63,010 bases of DNA from Candidatus Ratteibacteria bacterium (GTDB taxonomy: Bacteria; CAIJMQ01): NCBI GenBank assembly GCA_028715665.1, contig JAQURI010000001.1, positions 1 to 63,010 on the forward strand, in the 5' to 3' direction. Position 1 is the stretch's first letter. Every line of letters starts with the position of its first letter. The notes below the pieces were generated by a model, which saw only the letters and a program-made list of their open reading frames with translations, made no database searches and was not told where the DNA came from. Both the position numbers and the translations under genes were made by a program. Shown here in pieces: positions 8,347 to 51,263 of this stretch.

Positions 8347-8379
8347 TAACCGATAGCTTTATCGTAATTATGTCACAAA
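8347..8379 (+). promoter_or_regulatory. Conserved promoter-like cassette, copy 1
   Basis: Sequence TAACCGATAGCTTTATCGTAATTATGTCACAAA. The palindrome TGTACGTACA (8331-8340) lies 6 nt upstream. Confidence 0.6.
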
Positions 8380-10361: not shown

Positions 10362-10394
10362 TGACCGATACCTTTATCGTAATTATGTTATCTC
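10362..10394 (+). promoter_or_regulatory. Conserved promoter-like cassette, copy 2
   Basis: Sequence TGACCGATACCTTTATCGTAATTATGTTATCTC. TGTACGTACA (10346-10355) lies 6 nt upstream, and the start codon at 10404 follows. Confidence 0.6.
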
Positions 10395-14392: not shown

Positions 14393-15701
14393 GGGTCAAG
14401 GGGTAGAAATCGCCCCGTGCCTTGAGGCCGGGGCTGAATCGTACCCCTTGGAATAGCAACACCATTGACCGATACCTTTATCGCAATTATGTTTCAAAGG
14501 ACTACAAAGAATGAAAAAAACATACCAGTTCAGGCTATACCCGACGAAAACCCAAGAAGTAACACTGACTAGGACTCTTAGTACGTGCAGGCACCTGTAC
14601 AATAATGCTCTTTCCGAGCGAAGGAAGCAGGCAACTTCAAACACAGTATTGAGACTGCTTCAGGTCTTCCCATGGGGAAAACCGGACTGGGTAACTAAGA
14701 ACGACCAGATGTTAAGCTTGACTGAAACAAAGACCGAGCATCAGTCCGAGGTTTACACACAGGTCTTACAGGATGTAATCAAACGTGTAGACAGGAGTTT
14801 CAAGAATTTCTTTAATGGCTTCGGCTATCCTCGTTTTCATGGCAGGAACCGGTACAACAGTTTCACGTATCCCCAACTGGGCTTCTCACTCAACTCCGGG
14901 AAATTAACCCTTTCAAAAATCGGCGGTATCAAGTTAATGCAGCACCGGAAAATAGAAGGAACAATCAAAACATGCACAATTAAAAAAGACATCGACCGAT
15001 GGTATGTTACTTTTTCCTGTGAAATAGAATCTCCCGTACCGGTTGAAATCAAAACCAGAACCGGGATAGATGTAGGCTTGATAGATTTAATCACATTAAG
15101 CAACGGTGAACAGGTAAAACCCCCGAAATTTCTGCGAGCATCAGAAAGCAAACTGATACAGGAACAGAGACGATTAAACCGTAAAAAGAAGGGTTCAGGA
15201 AAGAGGAACCGGCAAAAGATAATAGTAGCCAAGGTACACAGGAAAATCAGGAACCAGCGAAAAGACTTTGCTCATAAGCTATCGAGACAACTGGTCGATA
15301 GCTATGACCTGATAAAATTCGAAGATTTGCAAATAACGAATATGGTTCAGAACCATCATGTTGCAAAAAGCATAAGTGATGCTGGCTGGTATCAGTTGAT
15401 GAATTTTACGGACTACAAAGCAGGATACGCTGGTAAGTTCGTAGAATTCGTAAATCCATCCGGAACAAGTCAGACCTGTACCTGTGGTTTCGGTGTAGCA
15501 AAAGACCTGTCAGTAAGGATACACCGTTGTCCTTCCTGCGGTCTTGTAATGGGACGAGACCAAGTATCAGCGATATTGATAGAAAACAGGAATTCAGTAT
15601 ATACCGTAGGAACTACGGAAATCAAAGCCCGTCGAGGACTCTCACGAACAAGAGAGCCGATGCAGCGGGACGCCCAAGCCATTCAGGGTCGGGCAGTTCA
15701 C
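14392..15701 (+). mobile_element. tnpA-less IS200/IS605-family unit (LE + internal promoter cassette + tnpB + RE)
   Basis: The LE at 14392-14462 is homologous to the LE of the complete IS, with hairpin GCCCCGTGCC-TTGA-GGCCGGGGC at 14412-14434. An imperfect RE hairpin lies at 15672-15694, and the terminus AGTTCAC (15695-15701) is identical to the RE terminus of the complete IS. Joining the flanks gives a tidy stop-SD-start junction. Confidence 0.75.
14466..14498 (+). promoter_or_regulatory. Conserved promoter-like cassette, copy 3 (inside the tnpB unit)
   Basis: Sequence TGACCGATACCTTTATCGCAATTATGTTTCAAA. The tnpB ATG at 14511 lies 22 nt after the cassette's internal ATG. Confidence 0.6.
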
Positions 15702-15716
15702 GGAGGAGGAACATAA
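14511..15716 (+). CDS. tnpB: TnpB (IS200/IS605 OrfB, RNA-guided RuvC nuclease)
   Basis: KTYQFRLYPT N-terminus; RuvC residues in GIDVGLIDL, KFEDLQI and GRDQVSA; zinc finger CTCG...CPSCG. About 60 percent identical by eye to the second copy. Confidence 0.9.
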   Translation: MKKTYQFRLYPTKTQEVTLTRTLSTCRHLYNNALSERRKQATSNTVLRLLQVFPWGKPDWVTKNDQMLSLTETKTEHQSEVYTQVLQDVIKRVDRSFKNFFNGFGYPRFHGRNRYNSFTYPQLGFSLNSGKLTLSKIGGIKLMQHRKIEGTIKTCTIKKDIDRWYVTFSCEIESPVPVEIKTRTGIDVGLIDLITLSNGEQVKPPKFLRASESKLIQEQRRLNRKKKGSGKRNRQKIIVAKVHRKIRNQRKDFAHKLSRQLVDSYDLIKFEDLQITNMVQNHHVAKSISDAGWYQLMNFTDYKAGYAGKFVEFVNPSGTSQTCTCGFGVAKDLSVRIHRCPSCGLVMGRDQVSAILIENRNSVYTVGTTEIKARRGLSRTREPMQRDAQAIQGRAVHGGGT

Positions 15717-17470: not shown

Positions 17471-18960
17471 AAAGCAAAATCGTTATGATATACCCGCCGA
17501 CAGGCAATATCGTAGACTATAACACCCCAACAGGAACTCTTTATGTGGCAACTTATTTACAGGAAAAGGGCTATGATGTGAGATTCATAGACTGTTCCGT
17601 TGAGGAAAACTGGCACGAAAGAGTATTGGAGGAAGTAAAAGATGCCCTATGTTTTGGCTCTTACTGCATGTCAATTCACATAAAGCATTTAATTCCGTTA
17701 CTAAAAGACGTAAAAAGAATCAATCCAGCGATAAAGACTGTATTGGGGGGAGCACATCCAACCCTGTTCCCGGAGCAGACGGCAGCAGACCCGCTAGTAG
17801 ACTTTGCTGTAATAGGGGAAGGAGAAGAGACAATGCTGGAACTGGTACAAATGATAGAAGCGGGAAAGACTGATTTCTCCGAGGTAAAAGGGATTTCATA
17901 TAAACACAAAGGGAAAGCCCTAACAACCCCTGCCCGTGAATTCATAGACATGGACACATTACCATTCGTGGACTGGAGTTTAATGAGCCAGAAAGCACTC
18001 GACAGCATGAAAACAAAAATAGCAAGAATACAAACAAGCAGAGGCTGTCCTTTTCATTGTAGTTTCTGCATCAACGTCGTCTCAAAAAACGGTAAGATGA
18101 GATACAGGTCTCCGCAGAAAGTCGTTGACGAAATAGAACATATGATAAAGACCTATGGAGTAAAGAGGTTTGGGATAAGAGATGAAGTTTTCCTGTTGAA
18201 CCGCCAGAAAGCAAAAGAAATAGCTCAGGGCATAATTGACAGAGGACTCGAAATAACATGGCTCGCTAATCCGCACGTTAAATTCCTGCGGGAAAGCTGG
18301 ATTGATGATGAATATCTTGATTTACTCAAACGGTCAGGATGCACAAAACTCCAATGTGGAGGAGAATCGGGAAACCAGAGGATATTGGACATGCTTCACA
18401 AGACAGTTACACCAGAAGACACCCTGAATTTTGTGAAACGAACAAAAAAGCACGGAATAATTTCACTCGTAGCATTCATGACAGGACTCCCGACAGAGAC
18501 CAGAGCAGAACAATTGCAAACATTAAAGCTGATATGGGGAATAATGGAGATAGCTCCGGAAACGTTCATTAACGGGGCAGCAATGTTCAGACCATACCCC
18601 GGAGGCGAATTATACGAACAGTGCGTGCGGGATTATAATTTAAAAATGCCAATAACATTCCGGGGCTGGATGGACGTAGAAACAATCGGGGGAACAAAAC
18701 CACCATGGATAAAAGACCTGTATTTCAGTCAGAACCTGTGGATGCATACTACGTTTGCCAGATACGAAAATCTTGGCCAGTTAACAGGTATCTGCAAGAA
18801 AATATATAAAAAATACGGGTTACTTCCAGCAATCGGTGCATATTTATGGGGAAAAGTCTCACATTATCGATTGAAGCATAACTATTATGGATTTCTGATA
18901 GACTTTTGGCTGCTTCAAGCATACTGGCATCAGCGCGGAGAAATTCCGGAATTAAGTTGA
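17467..18960 (+). CDS. B12-binding-domain radical SAM enzyme
   Basis: N-terminal cobalamin-binding-like domain (IVMIYPP...DVRFIDC) followed by SRGCPFHCSFC (CX3CX2C). Confidence 0.88.
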   Translation: MKSKIVMIYPPTGNIVDYNTPTGTLYVATYLQEKGYDVRFIDCSVEENWHERVLEEVKDALCFGSYCMSIHIKHLIPLLKDVKRINPAIKTVLGGAHPTLFPEQTAADPLVDFAVIGEGEETMLELVQMIEAGKTDFSEVKGISYKHKGKALTTPAREFIDMDTLPFVDWSLMSQKALDSMKTKIARIQTSRGCPFHCSFCINVVSKNGKMRYRSPQKVVDEIEHMIKTYGVKRFGIRDEVFLLNRQKAKEIAQGIIDRGLEITWLANPHVKFLRESWIDDEYLDLLKRSGCTKLQCGGESGNQRILDMLHKTVTPEDTLNFVKRTKKHGIISLVAFMTGLPTETRAEQLQTLKLIWGIMEIAPETFINGAAMFRPYPGGELYEQCVRDYNLKMPITFRGWMDVETIGGTKPPWIKDLYFSQNLWMHTTFARYENLGQLTGICKKIYKKYGLLPAIGAYLWGKVSHYRLKHNYYGFLIDFWLLQAYWHQRGEIPELS

Positions 18961-18988
18961 CCGATATATTTATAGTAATTATGTTTCA
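18958..18988 (+). promoter_or_regulatory. Conserved promoter-like cassette, copy 4, cut off by IS insertion
   Basis: TGACCGATATATTTATAGTAATTATGTTTCA is followed directly by the IS right end (GTGAACT on the + strand). Its TGA is the stop codon of the upstream gene. Confidence 0.55.
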
Positions 18989-18993
18989 GTGAA

Positions 18994-20172
18994 CTACCAC
19001 CCTACAAGTAGGGTGGCTTCCTGCTTCATCATGTCTATGCTTAGACCACTCTTGCAGGCTTCAATTCCCGCAGTTCCTGCGGTACATCTATCCAGAACTA
19101 CATTAGCTGCATTGGTATCTCTGTTCTCAACATTCCCACACTGGTTGCATCGAAATACTCTATCCCTCAATGTCATTTTCTGTTTGTTCCCACACACATG
19201 ACAGGTCTGTGATGTTCCCGCAGCTATACAGAGCTTAACCTGCTTCCCAGCTTCTTCCGCTTTGGATGCTGTTAAGGTCTGTAGTTGATACCATCCTGCG
19301 TCCATGATGGATTTCGCAAGATGATGATTCTGAACCATGTTTTTGATTTGTAAGTTCTCGAATGCGATTAAATCGAATCTGGTAACGAGTGTACGTGCAG
19401 TCTTATGAGCGAAATCCTTTCTCTGGTTTCGGATTTTCTGATGTATTTTTGCTACTGTGAGTTTCTGTTTCTTCCTGTTATTCGACCTGAGTTTCTTCTT
19501 TGCCAATCGTCTCTGTTCCTTTGCAAGTTTGTTTTCTGATTGTCTCAGGAACTTCGGGGGCTTGACCATTTCCCCGGTATTTAATGTAAGAAGGTCGGTT
19601 AATCCGACATCTATTCCGACCATTGTAACCACAGGTACTTTCTCAACTGCCTTATTCATCTCAACCGTGAATATCGCATACCATCGGTCAACGTCTCTCT
19701 TGATAGTACATGTTTTGATATTCCCCTTAATGTTCCGATGAAGGATTATCCGTATTGTTCCTATCTTTGAGAGATTGAGTTTTCCAGATTCAATTGTTGC
19801 TCCGCTCTGGGGATACGTGAATGAATCATACCTGTTCATTCCCTTGAATCGGGGAAAACCTGAACCACGAAAGAAGTTATCAATGCTCTTATTGACTCTC
19901 TTTAACACGTTCTGGAGAATCTGTGAATGTACTTCTTTCTGGAAGGAGTCTTTGCACGCTGCAAGCGTATTAGCTTGGTCTTCGTAATATATCCATTCTG
20001 GTTTGCCCCACGGGAATACCTGAAGAGTTTGTCTCAGTCTATTAAGCTCTATGCGTCGTTTCCGTTCTGCAAGAGCGTCGTTATAGAGATGCCTGCACGT
20101 GTTCAGAGTCTTGACCATAGTTACTTCTTGGTTCTTGGTTGGATATATACTGAACACGTAGGCTTTTTTCAT
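18994..20172 (-). CDS. tnpB: TnpB (IS200/IS605 OrfB, RNA-guided RuvC nuclease)
   Basis: RuvC residues in GIDVGLTDL, AFENLQI and NRDTNAANV; zinc finger CHVCG...CNQCG. Confidence 0.9.
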   Translation of the reverse strand: MKKAYVFSIYPTKNQEVTMVKTLNTCRHLYNDALAERKRRIELNRLRQTLQVFPWGKPEWIYYEDQANTLAACKDSFQKEVHSQILQNVLKRVNKSIDNFFRGSGFPRFKGMNRYDSFTYPQSGATIESGKLNLSKIGTIRIILHRNIKGNIKTCTIKRDVDRWYAIFTVEMNKAVEKVPVVTMVGIDVGLTDLLTLNTGEMVKPPKFLRQSENKLAKEQRRLAKKKLRSNNRKKQKLTVAKIHQKIRNQRKDFAHKTARTLVTRFDLIAFENLQIKNMVQNHHLAKSIMDAGWYQLQTLTASKAEEAGKQVKLCIAAGTSQTCHVCGNKQKMTLRDRVFRCNQCGNVENRDTNAANVVLDRCTAGTAGIEACKSGLSIDMMKQEATLLVGW

Positions 20173-20226
20173 TGGGTATTGTATATACCTATAGGTTTAT
20201 ATGTTTTGTGGTATATATAGAGCGAT

Positions 20227-20619
20227 ATGGGAAAAACAAGCTCATGCATCTACAACATCAATTATCACCTTATCTGGTGCCCAAAATATAGAAAACCAAT
20301 ACTTGAAGAACCGAAAGTCAAAACGTTTCTTGAAGACCAGTTACAGACAATAGCTGATGCGAAAGAATATGAAATTCTCGAACTTCAAGTCATGCCAGAC
20401 CATATTCACTTATTCATTTCTGCTAAACCGTTTGAAGCTCCAACTGATATTGTTAAGGTCTTTAAAGGGGTAACAGCATTACGGTTGTTCAAGAAGTTCC
20501 CTGAATTGAAAGAACAATATTGGAGAGGGAAACTATGGTCTCCAAGCTATTATGTCGGAACTGCCGGAACAGTATCAGCGGAAACTATTAAGATGTATAT
20601 TCAAAATCAGAAAGGATGA
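20227..20619 (+). CDS. tnpA: TnpA (IS200-type Y1/HUH transposase)
   Basis: HUH motif in PDHIHLFISAKP and catalytic-Tyr region SPSYYVGTAG. 130 aa. Confidence 0.9.
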   Translation: MGKTSSCIYNINYHLIWCPKYRKPILEEPKVKTFLEDQLQTIADAKEYEILELQVMPDHIHLFISAKPFEAPTDIVKVFKGVTALRLFKKFPELKEQYWRGKLWSPSYYVGTAGTVSAETIKMYIQNQKG

Positions 20620-20713
20620 GGGGCAGTATGTCGCTATGCAGGGGGGTACGATTCATCCACCGGACGAGTCCGGTGGTATTCTCTACCCCTCTACCCCACA
20701 TTATAAATACAAC

Positions 20714-20899
20714 ATGGACGAAGAAATCACAGTAAAAATAGACAAGATTCATAGTCAATCACCCCGTAATAGAAAGTCAAGAGCATGTCTCTTGAAGGAT
20801 ATGGGCAACCAGTTGACAAGGAGACTTAGGAACAAACTATGCAGAAGAATAACACCGGTCGAAAAAACATCGCGGGAAGAACCTACAAGTATAAACTAA
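20714..20899 (+). CDS. Small basic hypothetical protein (candidate first gene of the IS-interrupted operon)
   Basis: This is the first ATG after the IS left end. Removing the IS would place it 24 nt after the internal ATG of cassette copy 4, within the 19-29 nt range of the other copies. Confidence 0.3.
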   Translation: MDEEITVKIDKIHSQSPRNRKSRACLLKDMGNQLTRRLRNKLCRRITPVEKTSREEPTSIN

Positions 20900-21741: not shown

Positions 21742-22630
21742 CGGTAAAAAATATCTAATGGAAGCCATCAATAGCATCCTGAATCAAACATTCAGGGATT
21801 TTGAATTTATTATCATTGACGACGGCTCGGATGAATCCGTACATAACATGCTTTCAACTTTAGCCGACGAACGCATTAAACTTATTACAAACGAAAAAAA
21901 CATTGGACTTACTGCAAGCCTCAACAAGGGCTTATTCAAAGCTTCAGGCGAGTTTATAGCCCGTCAGGATGCAGACGATATGTCAGAACCGTCAAGGTTC
22001 TATGAACAGGTATCTTATCTCGACAAGCACCCGGAAATAGGGGTTGTAGGGACGAGCACGACTATAATCAACGAGAACGGGGAGAAGGTAGATTACTGGG
22101 ACGCAGTTCAAAATCCAATGGGATTACTAAAGACCGGCAATAGATTAACCCACGGGTCGGTAATGCTAAGACGAACTGTAATGGACGATATCGGAAAATA
22201 CGATTATCATTTTAAATATGCCCAAGACTATGAATATTGGTTACGGGTATCGAAAAAACATCAAATTCGAAACATACCAGTACGGTTATACCAATCACGA
22301 TTTCATAATAGAATGTTAAGCACAACAAAGATAAAAGAGCAGGCACAATATGTTATTTGTGCACAAAGGATGCATAAAACCGGAGAAGAATTCTCATATG
22401 AACTGGATATGACAAAGCCTGAAAAAATCAGATATCATACTATGCTTGCATATAGCTATATCCAAGCAGATAAAATGAGTGAAGCCGTACAAGAATTTAA
22501 AGAAATATTTAAATTAAACCCATTCAATTCAATGAACTTAATACGGATAATATCATATCTTTTTAGAGGACGTGATGGAATAATAAAAATTCAAAATAAT
22601 TATAGAAAATTACGATGCGCTTTCTATTGA
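21707..22630 (+). CDS. Glycosyltransferase, GT2 family
   Basis: VSVVMSLYNGKKYLMEAINSILNQTFRDFEFIIIDDGSDE and RQDADD motifs. Confidence 0.85.
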   Translation: MPKVSVVMSLYNGKKYLMEAINSILNQTFRDFEFIIIDDGSDESVHNMLSTLADERIKLITNEKNIGLTASLNKGLFKASGEFIARQDADDMSEPSRFYEQVSYLDKHPEIGVVGTSTTIINENGEKVDYWDAVQNPMGLLKTGNRLTHGSVMLRRTVMDDIGKYDYHFKYAQDYEYWLRVSKKHQIRNIPVRLYQSRFHNRMLSTTKIKEQAQYVICAQRMHKTGEEFSYELDMTKPEKIRYHTMLAYSYIQADKMSEAVQEFKEIFKLNPFNSMNLIRIISYLFRGRDGIIKIQNNYRKLRCAFY

Positions 22631-22661
22631 ATTAGAGCATGGGGCAGGGGGTAATTGACAA

Positions 22662-22748
22662 CGCCATGGGTGAGATTCGAACTCACGTAAGCCTTTCGAC
22701 CGTAATGGGGTAGCAACCCATCGCAATAAACCGCTATGCGACCACGGC
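22662..22748 (-). tRNA. tRNA-Ser (anticodon GCU)
   Basis: The reverse complement folds as a cloverleaf: acceptor GCCGTGG/CCATGGC, anticodon stem ATGGG/CCCAT with loop TTGCTAC, a long variable arm, and T-arm GTGAG-TTCGAAT-CTCAC. No CCA is encoded. Confidence 0.8.
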
Positions 22749-22751
22749 AAA

Positions 22752-22838
22752 CGCCAACGACAGGATTCGAACCTGTGATGCCCTTACGAACACAGCGGTT
22801 TTCAAGACCGCCGCCATACCAGACTTGACGACGTTGGC
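22752..22838 (-). tRNA. tRNA-Ser (anticodon UGA)
   Basis: Acceptor GCCAACG/CGTTGGC, anticodon stem GCGGT/ACCGC with loop CTTGAAA, a long variable arm, and T-arm ACAGG-TTCGAAT-CCTGT. Confidence 0.8.
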
Positions 22839-22848
22839 AATTTTGAAA

Positions 22849-22932
22849 TGGGTATAGACGGATTCGAACCGTCGGTAGGACTAACCAACTGGTTCCTAAG
22901 ACCAGTGCCTTTGACCGCTTGGCTATATACCC
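22849..22932 (-). tRNA. tRNA-Leu (anticodon UAG)
   Basis: Acceptor GGGTATA/TATACCC, anticodon stem CTGGT/ACCAG with loop CTTAGGA, a long variable arm, and T-arm GACGG-TTCGAAT-CCGTC. Confidence 0.8.
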
Positions 22933-22934
22933 AA

Positions 22935-23017
22935 TGCGTATATTCGGATTCGAACCGAAGATTGTCCTACGACCCAGAGCTTAAATCCGGTGCTTTTGAC
23001 CTCTCAGCCATATACGC
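22935..23017 (-). tRNA. tRNA-Leu (anticodon UAA)
   Basis: Acceptor GCGTATA/TATACGC, anticodon stem CCGGA/TCTGG (one G-U pair) with loop TTTAAGC, a long variable arm, and T-arm TTCGG-TTCGAAT-CCGAA. Confidence 0.78.
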
Positions 23018-23019
23018 TA

Positions 23020-23102
23020 TGCGAGTAATGTGATTTGAACACATGATTCCACTAAGGAACAGATTTTGAATCTGTTGTATTTGACCGCTCTACCATACTC
23101 GC
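23020..23102 (-). tRNA. tRNA-Leu (anticodon CAA)
   Basis: Acceptor GCGAGTA/TACTCGC, anticodon stem ACAGA/TCTGT with loop TTCAAAA, a long variable arm, and T-arm ATGTG-TTCAAAT-CACAT. Confidence 0.75.
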
Positions 23103-23386
23103 TTTATTATATTTGTTTTGATTAATGGTTAACTTATTTATTGAAACTATCAAATAAAATTATTTAAAGGCCAGTATAAATATTAAAAAAACAACGGTGA
23201 AATTTTAACAAAAACACTGACCTGAAATTATAGTGATAAACTCAGAGTGAGTGAACTCGATGATGACAAACTAAGACTGGATATAGAAATAGGCATGACG
23301 ATAATTATTTTGGTCATACGCTGAATTTGATTCATCCATTTCAAGATGAAAGATATGGTATATAATACTATGTACGATGGGTTCTG

Positions 23387-23647
23387 TCAGGTCTTCGGGG
23401 GATAGAAAGCCCGTGATAAAATCTTATTACGTTCTTTATAATTTCTTAACCATTCATCATCCACATCATCTAATTTCAATGGGACAGGATTTGAAGCCAG
23501 CATAAAAGCTTTATCATCGTTTGGATTATGTGTTTCTATCCTCCAATCTATTGTATCGTGCGGCTGCCGGCAACATTTTTTGTGACTTCTGGTATGATGT
23601 TTATTTTTTAATTTATTTACCAACTTTTTAGCTGAATCAGGTTTCAT
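23387..23647 (-). CDS. Hypothetical basic protein
   Basis: 86-aa ORF with ATGA-type overlap to the upstream (- strand) gene. Confidence 0.45.
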   Translation of the reverse strand: MKPDSAKKLVNKLKNKHHTRSHKKCCRQPHDTIDWRIETHNPNDDKAFMLASNPVPLKLDDVDDEWLRNYKERNKILSRAFYPPKT

Positions 23648-23931
23648 TTTCTACCTTTTTTTCTTAAATCTGTACACAACTGGCATAATTGAACGTGTTC
23701 TCGTTTACACCCCTTAATTACAGTAAATCCTTTTTTACATTGCCTGCAAGTTCTATGAATTTTCCAACCCCGTCGACCTCTCCAATCTACATAATCAGGG
23801 TTCATTAAAAGTTCTTCGGGCAAAAGAACTCGCTGACCCTCCATTCTACAAACTTTCAAAGCATCTTTTAAACCAATCTTTTTAACGATTTTACCAGGAG
23901 GAATCGGCTCATTGTTAATTCGCATTTCCAT
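23644..23931 (-). CDS. Hypothetical Cys-rich (zinc-ribbon-like) protein
   Basis: Contains CRQCKKGF...GCKREHVQLCQLC. 95 aa. Confidence 0.45.
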   Translation of the reverse strand: MEMRINNEPIPPGKIVKKIGLKDALKVCRMEGQRVLLPEELLMNPDYVDWRGRRGWKIHRTCRQCKKGFTVIKGCKREHVQLCQLCTDLRKKGRK

Positions 23932-23936
23932 AAGGT

Positions 23937-25298: not shown

Positions 25299-26213
25299 CT
25301 AATAGGACTCCGGGAATGAATTGTGAAAACAGTCTGACTTCCCACGTGTAACCACACATACAGACTGTGAAGGATATCCAATTGCTATGGCTCCACAGAT
25401 AAGCAAATAATCAGGGATTTTTAATAGTTTCCTGATATCGGATTCTTTTAACACGCTGCTGTATGAGGTGTACGTACACCAACAAGCCCCAAGACCAAGA
25501 TATTCAGCCGTTAATAAGATATTTTGAATTGCAGCCGCAGAATCCTGATACGGTGTAAATCTTTCTTCGGTGAGCCTATACCCACGCTTATCAGCTAATA
25601 CTATAAGGATAACAGGTGCTGTATGAGCAAATAGTTTACCGCCGGGTATTGATTCGGAAACCAGTTTCTTTTTGGTCGGGTCATTTATGATAAGATATTT
25701 AAGACCCTGCTGGTTGCAGGCAGTAGGTGCCCATTCAGCCGAAGAGATTAATTGCTCTATTATATCAGGCTCAAGTTTTTTATCGATAAACTTACGAACG
25801 CTCCGTCTCTGTTTTATAATTTCTAAAAGCTCCCGATTTTCTGGTTTTTGATGAAATTTACCAGTCATCGGGCAATTTTTTACATCATGATAATAATTTA
25901 TAAATTCCCATCGTATATTCTGTGCCCATTTTAATTGAGGCAGTGATTCATAACCTCGTAGATATAACTCCTCAAGACACCGGGATAGTTCATTATAGAC
26001 CTGTTTTTGTTCCAGAACATTCTTTGGTTTCAACATAATATATTTCTCGACGAGATGTGCTAATTTAGTCGTTCTCATTATTAGGAACTCATCGTCATTC
26101 TGTTCTGAAACCTTGAATCGAAGTGCTGAAATAGTTTCTTTCGTAAAATCAACATAGGTAACGCTTGCAAGTTTAAGTAACTGCATTATCCGATAGACTG
26201 TTTTAATGTTCAT
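25299..26213 (-). CDS. Nitroreductase-family flavoprotein with N-terminal extension
   Basis: RRSVRKFIDKKLEPDIIEQLISSAEWAPTACNQQ is the typical nitroreductase N-terminal signature. It starts about 135 aa into the ORF. Confidence 0.7.
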   Translation of the reverse strand: MNIKTVYRIMQLLKLASVTYVDFTKETISALRFKVSEQNDDEFLIMRTTKLAHLVEKYIMLKPKNVLEQKQVYNELSRCLEELYLRGYESLPQLKWAQNIRWEFINYYHDVKNCPMTGKFHQKPENRELLEIIKQRRSVRKFIDKKLEPDIIEQLISSAEWAPTACNQQGLKYLIINDPTKKKLVSESIPGGKLFAHTAPVILIVLADKRGYRLTEERFTPYQDSAAAIQNILLTAEYLGLGACWCTYTSYSSVLKESDIRKLLKIPDYLLICGAIAIGYPSQSVCVVTRGKSDCFHNSFPESY

Positions 26214-26674
26214 CCCTGTTTTAGCTCCCAGTTGTATGGAATTTTAGAAGTAAACGGGTCATTACGAAATATTTCATTCGGGTCATGAGGAATCGTAGCG
26301 CAATTGGCGACAATAGCCGTCTCAGTTCCAATCCCTTTAAATCCATTCCATACTTCAGGAGGAACTGTCACAAGAGCATAATTTTCATCTCCTATAAACA
26401 GTTCCATGATATTTCCACGTGTAGAAGACCCTTCTCTATTATCATAAAGAACAAGTTTTATTTTGCCATGAATACAGGCATAGTTCAATTTCATACTTTT
26501 ATGATAATGCCACGCCTTAATTACACCGGGATGGATAAGTGAAAAATAAATCTCGCCAAATTTCTCAAACACCGGGCTATCATTTCTTAACATATGAAAG
26601 ATACAACCTCTTTCATCAGGGATTTTACGTAATGGAGTTACAACAACCCCTTCAATTTGTGCCATATTTTTCAA
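26210..26674 (-). CDS. RmlC-like cupin (NDP-sugar epimerase/isomerase-like)
   Basis: IPDERGCIFHM...AWHYHKSM...GKIKLVLYDNREGSSTRG resembles dTDP-4-dehydrorhamnose 3,5-epimerase-type cupins. Confidence 0.65.
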   Translation of the reverse strand: MKNMAQIEGVVVTPLRKIPDERGCIFHMLRNDSPVFEKFGEIYFSLIHPGVIKAWHYHKSMKLNYACIHGKIKLVLYDNREGSSTRGNIMELFIGDENYALVTVPPEVWNGFKGIGTETAIVANCATIPHDPNEIFRNDPFTSKIPYNWELKQG

Positions 26675-27600
26675 TCTCTCCTATTATGTTCTTTATACCA
26701 ATCAATTGTTTTTTTCATTCCATCATATAATGTAGTTTTAGCTTTCCAGTGAAGTAGTTTCCTAGCATTATATGTATCAGCACAGGCATAACACATTTCA
26801 TTATTACGATATGGTACCGCACCCCAGACAGGATTGATTTTACTATTAAGTAGATTCAAAATGAGATTGATAGTAGTCCGAAGGGTCGGTGCATGTCCAG
26901 TTCCAATATCAAATATTTCATGTGCTTTCGTATAAGGGGGACTTGAAATCAACGACATATAAGCATCCACTATATCATCAACATAAATATAGTCCCATTT
27001 TTGATATCCCGGCGACGTTTTCAGTTCAGTCGTCTCACCTTTAAGAGCGGACTGGATTATAAATGGAATAAATTTACGTGCATTATCAAATTCTCCGTAA
27101 GCAGGAAATTGGCGAAACGTCACACACTGCATTCCCCGTTCGCCATAATAATCACAAAGAAGTTCGCCCTGTAATTTAGTAGCAGCATACAAGCTAATCG
27201 GATTAATTTTATGTACCTTGGATTTTCCATCATATACGAATGCAGTGCTTGCATTCACAAACAGTTTGATATCATTTTTAAGTGATTCATCAAGAAGAAG
27301 GGTTAAACCACGAACATTCGTATCATAGAGAGGCATTATATCAGAAAAGCAATGCTCAACAACATAATACGCAGCAAGATGGTAAACAATCTCCGGCTTA
27401 AATTTTCGGACGGCATCAGCAACTTTTACATTATCAGCTAAATCAGCAATAAAAACATTAAGCCGGCCATAAATATCTTCAATTCGTTCAATATTAGACC
27501 CAGCACGCTGAATAATCCCAACATCATGGTCATCAGAGACAAGTCTTCGGGTTAAATGAGACCCGATAAACCCCGTCGCTCCGGTAACAAGTATTCTCGT
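26671..27600 (-). CDS. NAD-dependent epimerase/dehydratase (SDR) lacking a canonical start codon
   Basis: The Rossmann motif (T)RILVTGATGFIGSHL is encoded in frame upstream of the first ATG (27336), and YAATK is the catalytic motif. The frame opens right after an in-frame TAG (27604-27606). ACG at 27598-27600 sits 7 nt after GGAGGA, where ATG is expected. Confidence 0.65.
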   Translation of the reverse strand, partial: TRILVTGATGFIGSHLTRRLVSDDHDVGIIQRAGSNIERIEDIYGRLNVFIADLADNVKVADAVRKFKPEIVYHLAAYYVVEHCFSDIMPLYDTNVRGLTLLLDESLKNDIKLFVNASTAFVYDGKSKVHKINPISLYAATKLQGELLCDYYGERGMQCVTFRQFPAYGEFDNARKFIPFIIQSALKGETTELKTSPGYQKWDYIYVDDIVDAYMSLISSPPYTKAHEIFDIGTGHAPTLRTTINLILNLLNSKINPVWGAVPYRNNEMCYACADTYNARKLLHWKAKTTLYDGMKKTIDWYKEHNRRD

Positions 27601-27603
27601 AAA

Positions 27604-28008
27604 CTACTCCTCCTGAAGGGTTGGAGCATCCGATTTCATAGCTTCAACTTCTGCAAGAAAATCCATTTGAATATCATAAATACCATCACTATGAGCCGAT
27701 ATATCTCTAACTGAATCAAGTCCAAGTTTTTTATGATTGTTTAAAAAAGACCACGTAACCATTTCATTCTTTCTGGATATTACTACTGCTTTTCTAATAT
27801 TTCCTTTAACTGCGAAAGTTCTTCCTCGAACTAAAGCATCATAATAACATTCTTTGCATACAGGCATACCAGCCCATACACCAGTTTTTGTGATGTCAAC
27901 TTTTTTACCTTTATACATTGGAATTGACCATTTCAATGGGGTACATTCGTTGCATATTGCACAGTTGGTGTATGCTTCGGTCAAATCGATGACAATCTCT
28001 TCATTCAT
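27604..28008 (-). CDS. Hypothetical zinc-ribbon protein
   Basis: The MNEEIV start overlaps the upstream GT2 stop by 8 nt. Contains CAICNEC...CKECYY. Confidence 0.45.
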   Translation of the reverse strand: MNEEIVIDLTEAYTNCAICNECTPLKWSIPMYKGKKVDITKTGVWAGMPVCKECYYDALVRGRTFAVKGNIRKAVVISRKNEMVTWSFLNNHKKLGLDSVRDISAHSDGIYDIQMDFLAEVEAMKSDAPTLQEE

Positions 28009-28903
28009 TTTCAATCCTCCAATCAATAATTCGATATATATATCCCAGCCCAACAGTGGCCGTAAAAGCAACAAGGAAAAATAACTGTATTATACGCTCA
28101 GGGATGCCGGTAAATAGAACATATTTAAGGAACCCCGATTCCTGACTTAATTTATCGGAAGATTTTTCCCCCATCACATGTTTTGAATACCCCTGCCAGA
28201 ACGCACGACGAAACAATGCTTTTAATGCAACCCGCGACTTGAACACTTTATGATGAACAATGGCATCAGGATTATACCAGACACCTGCCCCGGTAAGTTC
28301 TTGAATTCTGTTACAGATATCAGCTTCTTCCCCCTGCAAAACAGTATTTTTTCCAGCATTGAATCCGAATCCAGTATCGAACCCACCGACCCGAAGAAAA
28401 ACATCACGAGCAAAACTTATATTAGACCCATAAGTATTCCTGACAATTTTAATATGTTCAGGGCTGCCTTTGGGATTGGCACCGATGAGCCACCAGAACT
28501 CTTCCGGAATAAAAGCCGACACACCATCTATCCATAAGGGAACAAGTCTTCCTCCGGCGGCGACGGCATCATTTTGACGGTACAAAATAGCCAAATGCGA
28601 TATCCAGTATGGGTCAGCTACAGCATCATCATCAAGAAATGCGACTACATCCCCGGTAGCAATTTCAGCCCCAACATTCCGGCTCTTTGAAAGACCAAGA
28701 TTGATGTCATTGAGATGCATTTTTACGCCAATATCTTGACTTAAAATAGTATCATATAATTCCTTATTCCCATCAACAACGACAATTATTTCAATAAACG
28801 GATATGTTTGATTTTTAACACTATCGATTGCCTCAATTAAATCTGAATATCTTTGTACACTGTACGTACATATGATAACTGAGAACATTAACGAATCGCT
28901 CAT
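28001..28903 (-). CDS. Glycosyltransferase, GT2 family
   Basis: FSVIICTYSVQRYSDLIEAIDSVKNQTYPFIEIIVVVDGN and FLDDDAV motifs. Confidence 0.85.
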   Translation of the reverse strand: MSDSLMFSVIICTYSVQRYSDLIEAIDSVKNQTYPFIEIIVVVDGNKELYDTILSQDIGVKMHLNDINLGLSKSRNVGAEIATGDVVAFLDDDAVADPYWISHLAILYRQNDAVAAGGRLVPLWIDGVSAFIPEEFWWLIGANPKGSPEHIKIVRNTYGSNISFARDVFLRVGGFDTGFGFNAGKNTVLQGEEADICNRIQELTGAGVWYNPDAIVHHKVFKSRVALKALFRRAFWQGYSKHVMGEKSSDKLSQESGFLKYVLFTGIPERIIQLFFLVAFTATVGLGYIYRIIDWRIENE

Positions 28904-28953: not shown

Positions 28954-28986
28954 CGACCGATACCTTTATCGTAATTATGTTTCAAA
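28954..28986 (+). promoter_or_regulatory. Conserved promoter-like cassette, copy 5
   Basis: Sequence CGACCGATACCTTTATCGTAATTATGTTTCAAA. The start codon at 28999 lies 22 nt after the internal ATG. The cassette sits in a divergent intergenic region. Confidence 0.6.
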
Positions 28987-38193: not shown

Positions 38194-39756
38194 ATGGCAA
38201 AGAAACCACCAAACAGGGGAGGGTGGTTCGAATGCCCTGATGAATCTGGTAAAGCACCAGAGCACAAAGCAGCAGCAAATAAAAATAATATGATGGGAAT
38301 ACTAAGGGTACCTATGAAAAGGTTAAAACCCGAAGGATATAAGGCACACAAAATAATTATAAACGAACTGCAAGAAGTGACGATTCAGATAGGCCATTTC
38401 CCCACCTCACAAGAACTCAGGCGTATAAATAAAGAAGGTCTTATTGCCAGAATATTTAGGCACGGTGGAATTAACCATTTCAGAACCGAATTGGGTCAGA
38501 AACTCATCAAGAAATCAAAAGACTATTGGTCAGACGAAATAATCGTTTCTGAATTAAAACCAATAATTATTAAAATCGCACATTTTCCCACAAGGGATGA
38601 GTTAATAAACCTAAACAGGGGTGATTTAGCTGGGGCAATAGCCACTAAAGGCGGATACAATAAATTCCAGAATTTATTGGGGTATGAAGCACAACGCAAA
38701 CCAAAGGACTACTGGGCAGATGAAACAGTAATAGCTGAATTAGAACCAATAATAGAACTTTTCGGATATTTTCCAACAATGGAAGAACTTAGAGCGAAGG
38801 AAAGGAGAGATTTAGCTTCTCAAATAGCTATACATGGTGGTGTTAATAAATTCAAAAAATTAATGGGATACCATATAACGAAAAAAGATAATGGTAGTTG
38901 GACTGACGAAATAATAGTTTATGAATTAGAACAAATAACAAAAACGCTGGGACATTTTCCAACAAGGAAAGAATTAATTAGTATAGGGAGGATAGATTTA
39001 ACTGGCGCAATAACACGACACGGCGGAGCAAACAAATTTAGAGGATTATGTGAGAAACCAATTATCCAAAGGACTAAGGGGTATTGGACGGATGCCACGA
39101 TAATTTCAGGAATAAGACTGATTGCAATGAAACTAAATCATTTTCCAATGGTTGCTGAATTGAAAAACGAGGGGAGGGGTGACCTGCAAGCGCAGATAAC
39201 AAATCATGGAGGTGCAAATAAATTTAGAATGTTAATGGGATATCCAATATCCCAATACGATGAATATATATCTGAATTAATGACTTATGTTGGAAGGAGA
39301 GGTAAAAGGTCGGAAGGCATCATCAAACAGATATTAACCGGTTGGGCGCATCTACATAACCTTCCAGACCCAACATACAACAATAGGCTGGCACAAGGAA
39401 ATGTTATCGAATTTATATGTAATGTTGGGAGAAATATAGGAATAGACGTTACAAACACAGAAAGCAAAAAGGCAGTATCTGATAAATGGAGAAAAAAAAA
39501 GTATTACAAATATTTGGATGAACTCTGGATAGTTGTATTCAGTGACTCTTTTTCAGATACAGATTATGACCGATGGAACAAAGAAAGTCCAGAAAACGTT
39601 AAGGTCATGACTATACAAGATTTTTTAGAAGAATTAGATTATCCAATAGACGAAGCAACAAAATGTAAGATAGATAGATATTGCAAATGCACATTCCGCA
39701 CCAAGGACGAATTCATAAAACGACATTTAAATAGGAGTATAGATGATTATGTATAG
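38194..39756 (+). CDS. Protein with five homing-endonuclease-associated (HNH_repeat-like) repeats and a C-terminal PD-(D/E)xK-like nuclease domain
   Basis: Five ~60-aa repeats of the form YW(S/T)DE.I..EL..I...(G/A)HFPT..EL.....DL...I...GG.NKF..L.GY. The C-terminus has IEF...IGIDVTNTESKK (D...ExK). Confidence 0.7.
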   Translation: MAKKPPNRGGWFECPDESGKAPEHKAAANKNNMMGILRVPMKRLKPEGYKAHKIIINELQEVTIQIGHFPTSQELRRINKEGLIARIFRHGGINHFRTELGQKLIKKSKDYWSDEIIVSELKPIIIKIAHFPTRDELINLNRGDLAGAIATKGGYNKFQNLLGYEAQRKPKDYWADETVIAELEPIIELFGYFPTMEELRAKERRDLASQIAIHGGVNKFKKLMGYHITKKDNGSWTDEIIVYELEQITKTLGHFPTRKELISIGRIDLTGAITRHGGANKFRGLCEKPIIQRTKGYWTDATIISGIRLIAMKLNHFPMVAELKNEGRGDLQAQITNHGGANKFRMLMGYPISQYDEYISELMTYVGRRGKRSEGIIKQILTGWAHLHNLPDPTYNNRLAQGNVIEFICNVGRNIGIDVTNTESKKAVSDKWRKKKYYKYLDELWIVVFSDSFSDTDYDRWNKESPENVKVMTIQDFLEELDYPIDEATKCKIDRYCKCTFRTKDEFIKRHLNRSIDDYV

Positions 39757-40359: not shown

Positions 40360-43300
40360 ATGGCACGTGCACATTCATTACAAATATGCGTAGGATTAAT
40401 TTTACTTGCAATATTAATCGGATATTCGGATATAGTGGCTTCAGTTGAACCCCCGGTAATAACATATTCTTTTGATGATGTTACAAAGACTGCCCATATC
40501 AAAGAAGACTTGGTAGAGGCAGTAACCGTGGAGCAAATATCAACATCTCAAGACCTTGTTACGATGGAAGAAGTATTCAAAATCACATCCCATAAAAATA
40601 ATCTGAAAACAAGTGATTTAGGTATAACAACCCACCACAACAAGGTAAAAGGTAAAAAAGAAATTGACCAGACAAAGACAGAATGGTTCATCCAGACTAC
40701 AGTACCATATGGTGTCACAAACAACATTTATGGAACCGTTGAGAACAGCACGTTAATTAACAATATAGTAGCAGCAGACAACATAACAACCACATGGAAT
40801 ATAAACCGCACTCCAGTTCAGTATGGCTCAAACAATGGATTATACAAATGGAATTTCTCAAACGGGATAACCAATTTCACGCCGGACTGGTCGGTTATAG
40901 GATTTGACAGGCATCAAAACCTGACAGGGGACACACTCCCGGTAAATACGATATTTTATTACAACGAGGCAGCAATTGTCGGAACGAATACAACAACAGA
41001 ATACCGGACTGAATGGCAACCACTGGGCAAGAACGATATAAAAATAGATGATGGACAATCGGTTATTCTTAAAGTGATATACCACAAAGAAGCCGAAGCC
41101 GGAATAGTCAGTATCCAAACCATCCCGTCTTTTTATAATACCCCAATACCTGAACTGACGTGGTGGAACAACTCGTGGCAATATGTAGTGAACAACGCAA
41201 TGGTTAACGGTATACGGCCATATCAGATTCCTTTAAATATTACAAATGGTACTGGAACTAATAACGCCACAGATGTTTTCATATCCTGCAAAGCAGTAAA
41301 CTGTTCTGACCTTCGGTTTACATTGGAAAACACAACGGAATTACCATACTGGTTCGAACAGAATACCTCAGATAGTGCAACAACACTGGGCAAAGTATGG
41401 GTAAACGTAACCGGAAACGGTACCGTAAATATGTATTACGGTAATGGAGCAGCAACGTGGGCAAGCAACGGAACAAAAACATTTCCATTTTTTGAAGATT
41501 TCGAAAGTTACGCTGTCGGCTCATCAATAAACAACCAAAACGGCTGGACTGTTACGAGTCAGTATGGAGGAACATTCAGCGGAACGATTGTAAATACAAC
41601 AAGTGTTCCTCCGGGAACAAAATCATTACAAGCATATTCATCTGGTGGCGGGGATGGTGCAGTCAATGTAGCAAAAACATATTCGGCCATATCGGGAGAC
41701 CAGAGATTCGAGGGAAATTTCAGAACAGATAAACCCCAAAGCGGCGGAACATGCACATATTCTTTAGGTGCCTTCGGGGTAGTGATAGCAGTTCCCGGAG
41801 TGACAAATATGTATATGAGTCTAGGAAGATGTATAGATAATACCGGAAATCTGTTCAGTTTTATTGGTTCTACTAATCACACACCATATATATTAAATAC
41901 TTGGTATAATACAAGTGGGATACTAAACTATACTATAGGCAAAGCCACAACTTCTGTAAACGGTACACAATATGCAAATGTTACTCTAAATGGAACCAAC
42001 ACGACTCAAGTTAGCATATCCACATATACCGCTAACGGCGCATGGAGTGAGTGGGCTGACAATCTTCGTATAAGAAGTTATGCATCTCCGGAGCTAACAT
42101 GGTCAACGTGGGGTACGCAGATACAATCCGACTTTAATCCCCCAACATTAACATCATCATCCTTCAACCCGACATCGGGCACCGGTGGAGTATTAACGAC
42201 ACTGACCGCAAATTTTTCTGATAACACCGCTGTTAGTTCAGCTATAGTTTCAATCCAGACCCCGAACCAAACTGCAAGTAATTACACGATGTCCTGTACT
42301 CCATCAGGCACTAATGCTACATGTACCTTGGATTATACGGATACAGATGCAGCAGGGACTTATACCGTATTAAAATTCTATCCAAAGGATAATGCAGGCA
42401 ATGAAGGGTCAATTACACCATCCTTAACTTATCTGGTACTGGCAGTAGTGCAGCCAGTCGATGTCGTAAATGGAGTAACAGCTATCCTGAACACATCAAC
42501 GCCATCGAATGCAACAATGGACGAATTTAAATCAAACGGGATAACCACATCGGTCATAACTCTGGATTGGGATAATATTTCGGCATCAACGTGGAATAAC
42601 ATGCTTCCAGCGATTAATTATTCGTACAATATAGGTATGAGAATAGCCCTGAGATTAAATGTCGGGGGAGACTATAATAATACACCGAACGTAAACAGGG
42701 CAAACATAAATATCACAGCACACTTCCCGGATTTAAAGGTAGACCCGTATGAATCCGATATCCAGTGGATAGAGTTCAATTTCACGAACAGTTCCGCCAC
42801 AGCAGCACAAAGGGGTAATTTCTCAAATAAAATATCCCAGAACATAACTGAACAGACGAATAATAAATTCCCGGTATACACCGTCCAGACGGCTAGTGGT
42901 CTTGACTCGGTGTACGTAAAGAGTAATCCGTTAATTTACTTGAACATCGTAAACGATTCGGATTTTATTTCTCAGGAATCAATCACGACAAGGGGAAACA
43001 CTACAAGGAGCAGGGTATATTCAGGAGCAACAAATTTCACATTAATATCTCTATATAAGACAAATATAATTAACCGGTTAAGGGGTACAATAGCAGGGAC
43101 TCAGCCGGCAGAGACGTATGCCACGAATGTTAATAACGGCAGTGGTGGTTACGATATTATCCTGTATAATAACCAATCCTCGACCCAGAACAGGTCGATA
43201 TCAGGTTTAACCGGAACATACTTAGATACGACAGGAGACGTTCTGAAACAACTTCCAACATCTGGCACACTGTACTTCAATGTATCGGCAAATAGTTTCA

Positions 43301-51230: not shown

Positions 51231-51263
51231 CAACCAATACCTTTATCGTAATTATGTTTCAAA
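51231..51263 (+). promoter_or_regulatory. Conserved promoter-like cassette, copy 6
   Basis: Sequence CAACCAATACCTTTATCGTAATTATGTTTCAAA. Start codon at 51283. Confidence 0.55.

What the first reader, a model, noticed from the sequence alone, without database searches (positions are those of the whole stretch)
22662..23102. Tandem array of five class II (long variable arm) tRNAs only: Ser-GCU, Ser-UGA, Leu-UAG, Leu-UAA, Leu-CAA
Five tRNA genes are packed with 2-10 nt spacers on the - strand, and all are Leu or Ser isoacceptors. The three Leu tRNAs have AT-rich acceptor stems (GCGUAUA, GGGUAUA, GCGAGUA), and one has the unusual T-loop TTCAAAT. None encodes CCA.

The decoded codons (UUA, UUG, CUA, UCA, AGY) are mostly A/U-rich. 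This fits a mobile element or virus supplementing the host tRNA pool for its own lower-GC codon usage. A cluster restricted to class II tRNAs is unusual.
Basis: partly seen in the sequence, partly recalled or inferred. Interest (0 to 1): 0.65.

Follow-up and report, generated by a model that had tools for sequence, protein, structure and literature searches.

The report
Inserted Leu/Ser tRNA operon, uncultured archaeon
Five intact leucine and serine tRNA genes sit head-to-tail in an uncultured archaeon's sugar-coat gene cluster as a 1.3-kb block that related genomes lack, so they look like an acquired extra tRNA set, a known kind of feature with an unusual Leu/Ser-only make-up.

Summary
Two methods find five full-length tRNA genes on the minus strand (22662-23102): Leu-CAA, Leu-UAA, Leu-UAG, Ser-UGA and Ser-GCU. 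Spacers are 2, 2, 10 and 3 nt, and none encodes CCA. They are the only tRNAs on what appears to be a whole 63-kb contig.

All five carry the expected identity elements: A73 for Leu; G73, G30-C40 and G1-C72 for Ser. Their stems are GC-poor.

The contig is archaeal, with an archaeosortase-A-type AglB and an archaeal pilin. No viral hallmark gene or Borg-like repeats were found.

A related locus, collinear at 70-77% DNA identity, joins the two flanking genes directly. So the tRNAs, an AT-rich spacer and two small ORFs form a ~1.3-kb lineage-specific block. The only homologue of one ORF lies in a virus-like contig.

Codon usage matches that of relatives lacking the array, so the low-GC codon-compensation idea is not supported.

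Best reading: an acquired accessory tRNA operon processed by host enzymes. Its benefit, and whether these are the only gene copies, remain untested. A counter-defence role against a class II-specific tRNA nuclease is possible but has no direct evidence.

The parts
23020..23102 (-). tRNA-Leu(CAA), 83 nt, first gene of the array; acceptor GCGAGUA, A73, T-loop UUCAAAU, 40% GC
   Evidence: (59.5 bits)
22935..23017 (-). tRNA-Leu(UAA), 83 nt; acceptor GCGUAUA, A73, G37
   Evidence: (55.4 bits)
22849..22932 (-). tRNA-Leu(UAG), 84 nt; acceptor GGGUAUA, A73, G37
   Evidence: (64.2 bits)
22752..22838 (-). tRNA-Ser(UGA), 87 nt; G1-C72, G73, G30-C40, 18-nt variable region
   Evidence: (54.5 bits)
22662..22748 (-). 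tRNA-Ser(GCU), 87 nt, last gene of the array; G1-C72, G73, G30-C40; one non-canonical 13:22 pair
   Evidence: (52.5 bits)
23103..23386 (-). AT-rich (27.5% GC) spacer upstream of the array. It holds a perfect TTTAAATA box at 23168-23161, centred 62.5 nt before the first tRNA. This is a candidate promoter only; it is inferred, and TATA-like matches are not significantly enriched (5 found vs 2.2 expected).
22585..22661 (-). 3' tail after the last tRNA with T-runs at 22609, 22596 and 22589, which are candidate oligo-T termination signals (inferred). Homology with the relative L007 resumes at ~22615.
23644..23931 (-). ORF95, a small CxxC...CxxC zinc-ribbon protein that is part of the inserted block. 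It starts 5 nt after the stop codon of the 452-aa gene. Its only detectable homologue, P0031, lies in a virus-like contig.
23387..23647 (-). ORF86, a small basic ORF overlapping the end of ORF95. It is part of the inserted block and has no homologue.
22616..23936 (.). The whole lineage-specific block (~1.32 kb), absent between the orthologous convergent genes in L007/L008/L009. No flanking direct or inverted repeats were found.

Best explanation
This is an accessory operon of five canonical, archaeal-type class II elongator tRNAs (three Leu, two Ser). It was most likely acquired horizontally, together with two small ORFs, as a ~1.3-kb insertion between two convergent glycan-biosynthesis genes. 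The host replicon belongs to an uncultured euryarchaeon with an archaeosortase-A-type AglB, possibly Methanosarcinales-like. The proposed mechanism is inferred, not shown. The minus strand is transcribed either from a TATA-like box in the AT-rich spacer or by read-through from the upstream operon, giving one polycistronic precursor. RNase P and RNase Z cut at the 2-10-nt U-rich spacers. The host CCA-adding enzyme adds the 3' end, because no gene encodes CCA. Host LeuRS and SerRS then charge the tRNAs through A73 (Leu) or G73, G30-C40 and G1-C72 (Ser) plus the long variable arm. The net effect is extra decoding capacity for UUA, UUG, CUA/CUG, UCA/UCG and AGY. UUA and UCA are the most-used Leu and Ser codons on the contig. 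Whether the benefit is tRNA supply or robustness against tRNA loss is not resolved.
For: Shown: five full-length tRNAs with all universal and identity positions intact. Archaeal context. The block is absent from all seven fetched loci carrying the same glycan cassette. A collinear relative at 70-77% nucleotide identity joins the flanking genes directly. The same array is present, 100% identical, in an independent run from the same study. The stems are GC-poor, with 8-12 of 17 pairs G-C. The tested 22-26-mers from Leu-UAG, Leu-UAA and Ser-GCU had no true tRNA match: one pattern in 185,579 species genomes, two in IMG/VR and one in JGI metagenomes. BLAST of the whole array against phages and plasmids gave nothing better than E = 0.01. 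ORF95's only homologue sits among family-B polymerase, YopX, methylase, ligase and integrase genes. TTA is 30% of Leu codons and TCA 36% of Ser codons. Precedents exist for MGE-linked archaeal tRNA clusters and plasmid-borne tRNAs (PMC6333295; bioRxiv 10.1101/2022.02.01.478723).
Against: No integrase, terminal repeats or target duplication mark the block, so a deletion in the relatives cannot be excluded. The contig itself looks like ordinary chromosomal glycan-island DNA, and its GC and codon usage equal those of relatives. The host's other tRNAs are unknown, so 'accessory' is not demonstrated. Expression, processing and charging are all inferred. The TATA-like match is not statistically distinctive in this AT-rich spacer.
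Confidence: 0.5

Rival explanations
1. These are ordinary housekeeping genes: the organism's normal chromosomal Leu/Ser tRNAs, which happen to be clustered, with no link to any mobile element.
For: The contig carries a single-copy-type AglB and a conserved glycan/surface island that is collinear with relatives on both sides. No viral or plasmid hallmark genes were found. The tRNAs are structurally flawless. A shared promoter-like motif ties the whole contig together.
Against: The block is missing at the orthologous junction in a relative at 70-77% nucleotide identity and in all other cassette-bearing loci. The Leu acceptor stems have only 3-4 G-C pairs. From general knowledge, cellular archaeal tRNAs are GC-rich even in low-GC genomes. 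The neighbouring ORF95 has its only relative in a virus-like contig. Only five of the nine expected Leu/Ser anticodons are present.
Confidence: 0.25
2. This is the first reader's model: the whole contig is a virus or large extrachromosomal element with lower GC than its host, and the tRNAs compensate for its A/U-rich codons.
For: Nearly all genes are on one strand, with many ORFans, internal paralogue families and an eight-fold repeated 25-33-nt promoter-like motif. The collinear relative L019 adds a DNA methylase and a NADAR gene. TTA and TCA are the preferred Leu and Ser codons.
Against: No capsid, terminase, replication or partition gene, no terminal repeats, no Borg-type tandem repeats and no IMG/VR or phage-database relatives were found. 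Relatives without the array have the same codon usage. The NNA bias is general, yet no Ile, Lys, Glu, Thr or Arg tRNAs are carried. CTA is rare at 9%. The host composition is unknown.
Confidence: 0.15
3. This is a counter-defence set: the array supplies replacement or resistant class II tRNAs when a nuclease that recognises the long variable arm, or Leu/Ser anticodon loops, depletes the cell's own copies.
For: The array is restricted to the only two class II families in archaea (chance about 1e-4 to 5e-3). The sequences are diverged and GC-poor. Human SLFN11 and SLFN14 selectively cleave type II tRNAs (PMC11615386, PMC13245857). Schlafen-domain nucleases occur in 4 archaeal phyla (PMC12330615). 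Phage tRNAs are proposed to evade anticodon nucleases (PMC10264068).
Against: No nuclease or defence gene was found on the contig. The one characterised prokaryotic Schlafen cuts tRNA-Lys, Ala and Met, not class II tRNAs (PMC12330615). Host tRNAs are unavailable for comparison. The array has no demonstrated viral carrier.
Confidence: 0.08
4. This is an inactive remnant: a decaying fragment of a larger viral or MGE tRNA cluster that is no longer expressed.
For: The surrounding cassette is eroded: an epimerase is truncated and ~3 kb is deleted relative to L007. IS200/IS605 copies lie nearby. The variable-arm stems of the Ser tRNAs are weak and one has a U13:U22 mismatch. Archaeal tRNA clusters often contain pseudogenes (PMC6333295).
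Against: All five keep every universal position, the identity elements and full-length covariance scores of 52-64 bits. Decay would not be expected to spare all five.
Confidence: 0.07

Closest known systems
Archaeal tRNA gene clusters associated with mobile elements (Morgado & Vicente 2019, PMC6333295)
   Same: Densely packed archaeal tRNA genes in euryarchaeal genomes, often redundant with the core set and near transposases. Leu and Ser are the most represented isotypes there.
   Different: Those clusters hold 10-29 tRNAs of many isotypes. This one has five, only Leu and Ser, at 11 tRNAs per kb, and is not in Halobacteria or Methanobrevibacter.
tRNAs on the Methanoperedens plasmid HMp_v5 (bioRxiv 10.1101/2022.02.01.478723)
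   Same: A small number of archaeal-type tRNAs carried on non-core DNA of a methane-cycling archaeon. This raises the question of whether they are the host's only copies.
   Different: HMp_v5 carries Asp, Arg and Val (class I tRNAs) on a demonstrated plasmid. Here the carrier replicon is undefined and the set is class II only.
tRNA arrays of tailed viruses (haloarchaeal HGTV-1 with 36 tRNAs, PMC8651126; mycobacteriophage C1, PMC10264068)
   Same: Tandem, CCA-less, compositionally deviant tRNAs thought to boost translation or evade tRNA-targeting defence.
   Different: No viral genes are present here, the set is much smaller, and it has no known relatives in the phage or IMG/VR collections.
Schlafen-type class II tRNA cleavage (SLFN11/SLFN14; PMC11615386, PMC13245857) and prokaryotic Schlafens (PMC12330615)
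   Same: This is the only known biology that singles out exactly the Leu/Ser long-arm tRNAs.
   Different: It is a eukaryotic system. The characterised prokaryotic enzyme has other targets, and no such gene is linked to this locus. The link is a lead from analogy, not a tested relationship.

Membership tests
tRNA (Rfam RF00005), canonical elongator | Covariance-model score above the gathering threshold over the full model | tested here: met
   52.5-64.2 bits vs 29, model positions 1-71 of 71 for all five
tRNA (Rfam RF00005), canonical elongator | Universal positions U8, A14, G18G19, U33, G53-C61 and the UUC of the T-loop | tested here: met
   Present in all five. All five also have G15 and C48.
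Class II (long variable arm) tRNA | Variable region longer than 10 nt forming a stem-loop | tested here: met
   14, 14, 15, 18 and 18 nt. Stems drawn by ARAGORN are weak in the two Ser tRNAs.
tRNA-Leu identity | Discriminator A73 (PMC9976931) | tested here: met
   A73 in all three Leu tRNAs
tRNA-Leu identity | Archaea-specific sequence determinants in the variable arm (Haloferax volcanii; PMC9976931) | not tested
   The determinants are defined for one haloarchaeon, and the host LeuRS is unknown.
tRNA-Ser identity (bacterial-type and methanogen-type SerRS) | G73, G30-C40 and G1-C72 (PMC9976931) | tested here: met
   All three elements are present in both Ser tRNAs.
Archaeal tRNA gene cluster sensu Morgado & Vicente | At least 10 tRNA genes at a density of at least 2 per kb | tested here: not met
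   Only five genes. The density criterion alone is met, with 5 genes in 441 bp (PMC6333295).
Virus- or MGE-borne tRNA array | Carrier DNA with hallmark genes (capsid, terminase, replication, integrase, conjugation) | tested here: not met
   None found by Pfam, PHROGs, NCBIfam or PADLOC. No IMG/VR or phage-database relatives.
Virus- or MGE-borne tRNA array | Variable presence relative to otherwise collinear relatives | tested here: met
   The block is absent in L007-L014 and the junction is mapped.
Virus- or MGE-borne tRNA array | Redundant with, and sequence-divergent from, the host's own tRNAs | not testable with these tools
   No host genome or bin is available.
Borg extrachromosomal elements | Pervasive perfect tandem direct repeats, ~33% GC, long terminal inverted repeats | tested here: not met
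   Only four weak tandem-repeat rows, GC 39.7%, no terminal repeats.
Counter-defence tRNA | A cognate tRNA-cleaving nuclease in the host, and resistance-conferring differences from host tRNAs | not testable with these tools
   No nuclease on the contig, and the host tRNAs are unknown.

The most novel reading that the evidence does not exclude
The array is a dedicated replacement set for the two class II tRNA families. It would be maintained because the host lineage or its competitors deploy a nuclease that recognises the long variable arm, Schlafen-like or otherwise. That would make this an archaeal counterpart of tRNA-based immune evasion, aimed at a whole structural class of tRNA rather than a single anticodon.
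Probability: 0.08. Interest if true: 0.8.

Novelty: new member of a known kind. Interest (0 to 1): 0.35.

Why it matters
Accessory tRNA genes on variable DNA are well known in phages but sparsely documented in archaea outside haloarchaeal viruses and a few plasmids. A compact, intact array restricted to Leu and Ser is an unusual composition. It gives a concrete test case for a long-running question: do extra tRNAs serve codon supply, or do they protect against tRNA-targeting nucleases? If a class II-directed tRNase exists in these archaea, this locus would be the first sign of its counter-measure. If not, it is one more example of small-scale tRNA gene mobility within an archaeal surface-glycan island.

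Tried and rejected
1. DNA similarity of the locus to 50,697 phage records found nothing. The array alone against phages and plasmids gave only weak partial tRNA matches with E of 0.01 or worse, too weak and database-biased to assign a domain type.
2. Exact-pattern scans for tRNA segments gave no hit in species-representative genomes or IMG/VR. The two JGI metagenome hits were chance matches inside bacterial ORFs with no tRNA.
The cluster-member look-up gave no accessions or names.
4. Literature searches for the run, assembly and sample identifiers gave nothing usable.
5. Attempts to extend the contig through exact-protein look-ups returned only shorter Logan contigs.
6. The Borg hypothesis was rejected: no tandem repeats, wrong GC and no terminal repeats.
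7. A recent tandem-duplication origin was rejected. Leu-Leu identity is 63-69% and Ser-Ser 64%, against 53-62% across isotypes.
8. IMG/VR scans with three ORFan proteins and with the promoter-like motif found nothing.
9. I tried to fetch a haloarchaeal virus rich in tRNAs as an archaeal reference, but the accession I recalled was HCTV-1, which has one tRNA-Gln. I abandoned this line.
10. The AlphaFold model of ORF95 was too poor to use (mean pLDDT 46.6), so no fold search was run.
11. No flanking repeats or target-site duplication were found around the insert.
12. The GC-rich element at window 54-127 does not fold better than shuffled sequences (z = -1.18).

Full report
**Observation.** ARAGORN finds exactly five tRNA genes in the 63,010-base window, all on the minus strand between 22661 and 23102. 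Rfam's tRNA model finds the same five at 52.5-64.2 bits against a gathering score of 29, each covering the full model. In transcription order they are Leu-CAA (23102-23020), Leu-UAA (23017-22935), Leu-UAG (22932-22849), Ser-UGA (22838-22752) and Ser-GCU (22748-22662). ARAGORN over-extended three acceptor stems by one pair. None of the genes is followed by CCA. A permissive Rfam scan of the surrounding 1.6 kb found no further tRNA or other credible RNA.

**Are they functional-looking tRNAs?** All five have U8, A14, G15, G18G19, U33, C48, G53-C61 and a canonical T-loop. Only one non-canonical pair is flagged, position 13:22 in Ser-GCU. The identity elements listed in the tRNA identity review (PMC9976931) are all present. 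The three Leu tRNAs have A73. Both Ser tRNAs have G73, G30-C40 and G1-C72, which covers both bacterial-type and methanogen-type SerRS. The Leu D-arms (for example GCC-AAGCGGTCAAA-GGC, with G15-C48) resemble the archaeal/eukaryal pattern rather than the bacterial one. That judgement rests on my knowledge of consensus sequences, not on a domain-specific model. The stems are GC-poor: 8-10 of 17 acceptor, anticodon and T-stem pairs are G-C in the Leu tRNAs and 11-12 of 17 in the Ser tRNAs, and overall GC is 40-56%. Pairwise identities are 63-69% for Leu-Leu, 64% for Ser-Ser and 53-62% across isotypes, so these are diverged isoacceptors and not recent duplicates.

**Context.** The window appears to be a whole contig, because its own proteins are listed with a longest contig of exactly 63,010 bases. 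It is archaeal. AglB matches the archaeal AglB domains and passes the curated cutoff of TIGR04154, the archaeosortase-A-associated subfamily, at 684 bits against 450. An archaeal type IV pilin is also present. Most of the left 47 kb encodes sugar-nucleotide and glycosyltransferase functions, radical SAM enzymes and a 2,149-residue surface protein. The right 15 kb is a one-strand run of ORFans. Pfam, PHROGs, NCBIfam and PADLOC found no capsid, terminase, replication, partition, integrase or defence nuclease gene. There are no Borg-like tandem repeats and no terminal repeats. An IS200/IS605 element (TnpA plus TnpB) and a solo TnpB are present. Their best plasmid matches, at 60% and 45% identity, are to one IS of Methanomethylovorans hollandica, a weak hint of Methanosarcinales affinity.

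**The key comparative result.** The 452-residue protein just upstream of the array on the same strand has only 29 homologues. I fetched the contigs carrying seven of them. All show the same glycan cassette and none has a tRNA. An independent run of the same study carries the identical array (L001). L007 is collinear with the window at 70-77% nucleotide identity over about 13 kb and has similar GC, 0.379 against 0.397. In L007 the stop codon of the 454-residue gene and the end of the convergent GT2 gene overlap. In the window they are 1.3 kb apart. Alignment places the boundaries at ~23937 and ~22615. The lineage-specific block holds ORF95, ORF86, a 284-bp spacer at 27.5% GC, the five tRNAs and a 46-nt tail. 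The same comparison shows that the IS200/IS605 element is a separate insertion, and that the window has lost about 3 kb of the cassette. No repeats flank the block, so the insertion mechanism is unknown and a deletion in the relatives cannot be formally excluded. Four different downstream arrangements among the relatives all lack the block, which favours insertion.

**Link to mobile DNA.** ORF95 is a real gene. Its single detectable homologue (39% identity, E = 4e-14) shares a conserved N-terminus and a CxxC...CxxC zinc ribbon. That homologue lies in a 140-kb NCBI contig at 33.5% GC, among a family-B DNA polymerase, YopX, a DNA methylase, an AAA protein, a DNA ligase and a phage-type integrase, nearly all on one strand. 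The stretch examined has no tRNAs. This is the only direct tie between the block and a virus-like element. The tested tRNA segments (from Leu-UAG, Leu-UAA and Ser-GCU) have no match in the representative genomes, IMG/VR or the JGI metagenomes scanned, and the whole array has no significant match in the phage or plasmid collections.

**Testing codon compensation.** On the contig, TTA is 30% of Leu codons and TCA 36% of Ser codons, so two of the five tRNAs match the preferred codons. CTA, however, is the rarest Leu codon at 9%. The preference for A-ending codons is also general (ATA 46%, AAA 74%, GAA 78%, ACA 46%), yet no tRNAs for those families are carried. Orthologous genes in relatives without the array use Leu and Ser codons in the same way: TTA 28-36% against 29-33%, and TCA 31-34% against 29%. 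So nothing measurable here supports a low-GC element compensating against a higher-GC host, although the genome-wide host usage is unknown. Under normal archaeal wobble rules the set does not read CUY or UCY, so it is not self-sufficient. That last point rests on general knowledge.

**Is the contig itself a mobile element?** This is unresolved. Several features are virus- or ECE-like: the one-strand gene layout, the many ORFans, internal paralogue families, and a 25-33-nt promoter-like motif (ACCGATACCTTTATCGTAATTATGT) present eight times on the plus strand against 0.00 expected. On the other hand, the motif and the gene order are conserved in relatives on both sides (L007/L008 and L019). One ORFan family also occurs in a clearly chromosomal archaeal neighbourhood (L017). 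No relative exists in IMG/VR. The motif does not precede the tRNA array.

**Mechanism.** A perfect TTTAAATA box lies 62.5 nt upstream of the first tRNA, which would give a leader of about 35 nt. TATA-like matches are not significantly enriched in this AT-rich spacer, with 5 found against 2.2 expected. T-runs follow 52-72 nt after the last tRNA. I infer a polycistronic precursor cut by RNase P and RNase Z, CCA addition by the host enzyme, and charging by host LeuRS and SerRS. None of this is shown.

**Comparison with known systems.** Archaeal tRNA clusters of 10 or more genes, often MGE-linked and rich in Leu and Ser, are described in Halobacteria, Methanobrevibacter and Methanosarcina (PMC6333295). 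This array fails their size criterion. A Methanoperedens plasmid carries three class I tRNAs that fill gaps in the host set (bioRxiv 10.1101/2022.02.01.478723), so "only copy" is a live alternative here. Phage tRNAs have been proposed to evade anticodon nucleases (PMC10264068). The only known biology that singles out class II tRNAs is cleavage by human SLFN11 and SLFN14 (PMC11615386, PMC13245857). Schlafen nucleases exist in four archaeal phyla, but the characterised bacterial enzyme cuts tRNA-Lys, Ala and Met (PMC12330615). A class II-directed counter-defence role therefore remains a speculative, low-probability reading.

**Verdict.** The feature is real and accurately described. It is best read as a small, acquired, accessory class II tRNA operon in an archaeal glycan island: a new member of a known kind with an unusual composition. 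Whether the carrier is viral or an ECE, and whether these are the only gene copies, both remain open.

Noticed in passing
window 8349-8373, 10364-10388, 14468-14492, 18960-18984, 28956-28980, 51233-51257, 53580-53604, 55937-55961 (all + strand); also L007 2755-2776, L008 2730-2751, L019 ~9962 and ~12236: A 25-33-nt motif (TGACCGATACCTTTATCGTAATTATGTTTCAAA) occurs eight times against 0.00 expected. It usually ends 10-25 nt before a start codon and contains a TATA-like box and a CGATA/TATCG palindrome. It is probably a shared promoter/operator for leaderless or short-leader mRNAs. It spans both the glycan and ORFan parts of the contig, is conserved in relatives, and is absent from IMG/VR.
   Followed up: partly
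window 18989-20873 (TnpB 18994-20172 on -, TnpA 20227-20619 on +) and solo TnpB 14511-15716 (+): The IS200/IS605 element is an insertion relative to L007. Both TnpB genes lie immediately next to a copy of the promoter-like motif, which suggests either motif-targeted insertion or promoter capture. The best plasmid match for both TnpA and TnpB is one IS of Methanomethylovorans hollandica.
   Followed up: partly
window 26156-28029 versus L007 3749-9099: The glycan cassette is eroded in the window. The epimerase at 26671-27336 lacks its N-terminal NAD-binding part, and about 3 kb present in L007 (second epimerase, DegT aminotransferase, a 187-aa ORF) is missing.
   Followed up: partly
window 57321-57983 vs 58452-58958; 38194-39756 vs 62250-62972: There are internal paralogue families among the ORFans. 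Two proteins both end in ...ER[LM]KQVQL. Two others share an N-terminal SGKAPEHxxAANKN motif, one of them with five homing-endonuclease-associated repeats.
   Followed up: no
window 54-127; L007 14940-15013: A GC-rich ~75-nt element just upstream of the first gene is 80% identical to sequence upstream of a different operon (radical SAM) in L007. Its predicted fold is not better than shuffled sequences (z = -1.18).
   Followed up: partly
L015 (NCBI GCA_041643315.1, JBGGGV010000006.1, positions 30730-51098): A virus-like or giant-MGE-like one-strand block at 33.5% GC carries a family-B DNA polymerase, YopX, an N6/N4 methylase, a clamp-loader-like AAA protein, a DNA ligase, radical SAM and a tyrosine integrase. 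It holds the only homologue of ORF95.
   Followed up: partly
L017 (ENA ERZ27279977 k141_4031761): An archaeal chromosomal neighbourhood (Rpb4, L21e, Pus10, Mre11/Rad50/NurA/HerA) also encodes RuvA-, RuvB- and RuvC-like proteins, which are normally bacterial.
   Followed up: no
window 40360-46809, repeats at 46253-46323: A 2,149-residue predicted surface protein has a Gly-rich and Pro/Thr-rich linker near a C-terminal membrane anchor. Its 3' end and the following genes are collinear with L019.
   Followed up: no
L019 6357-8458 versus window ~52084-52350: The relative L019 carries a NADAR-domain gene and a DNA methylase at a position where the window has only ~270 bp. This is another indel hotspot in the ORFan block.
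   Followed up: no
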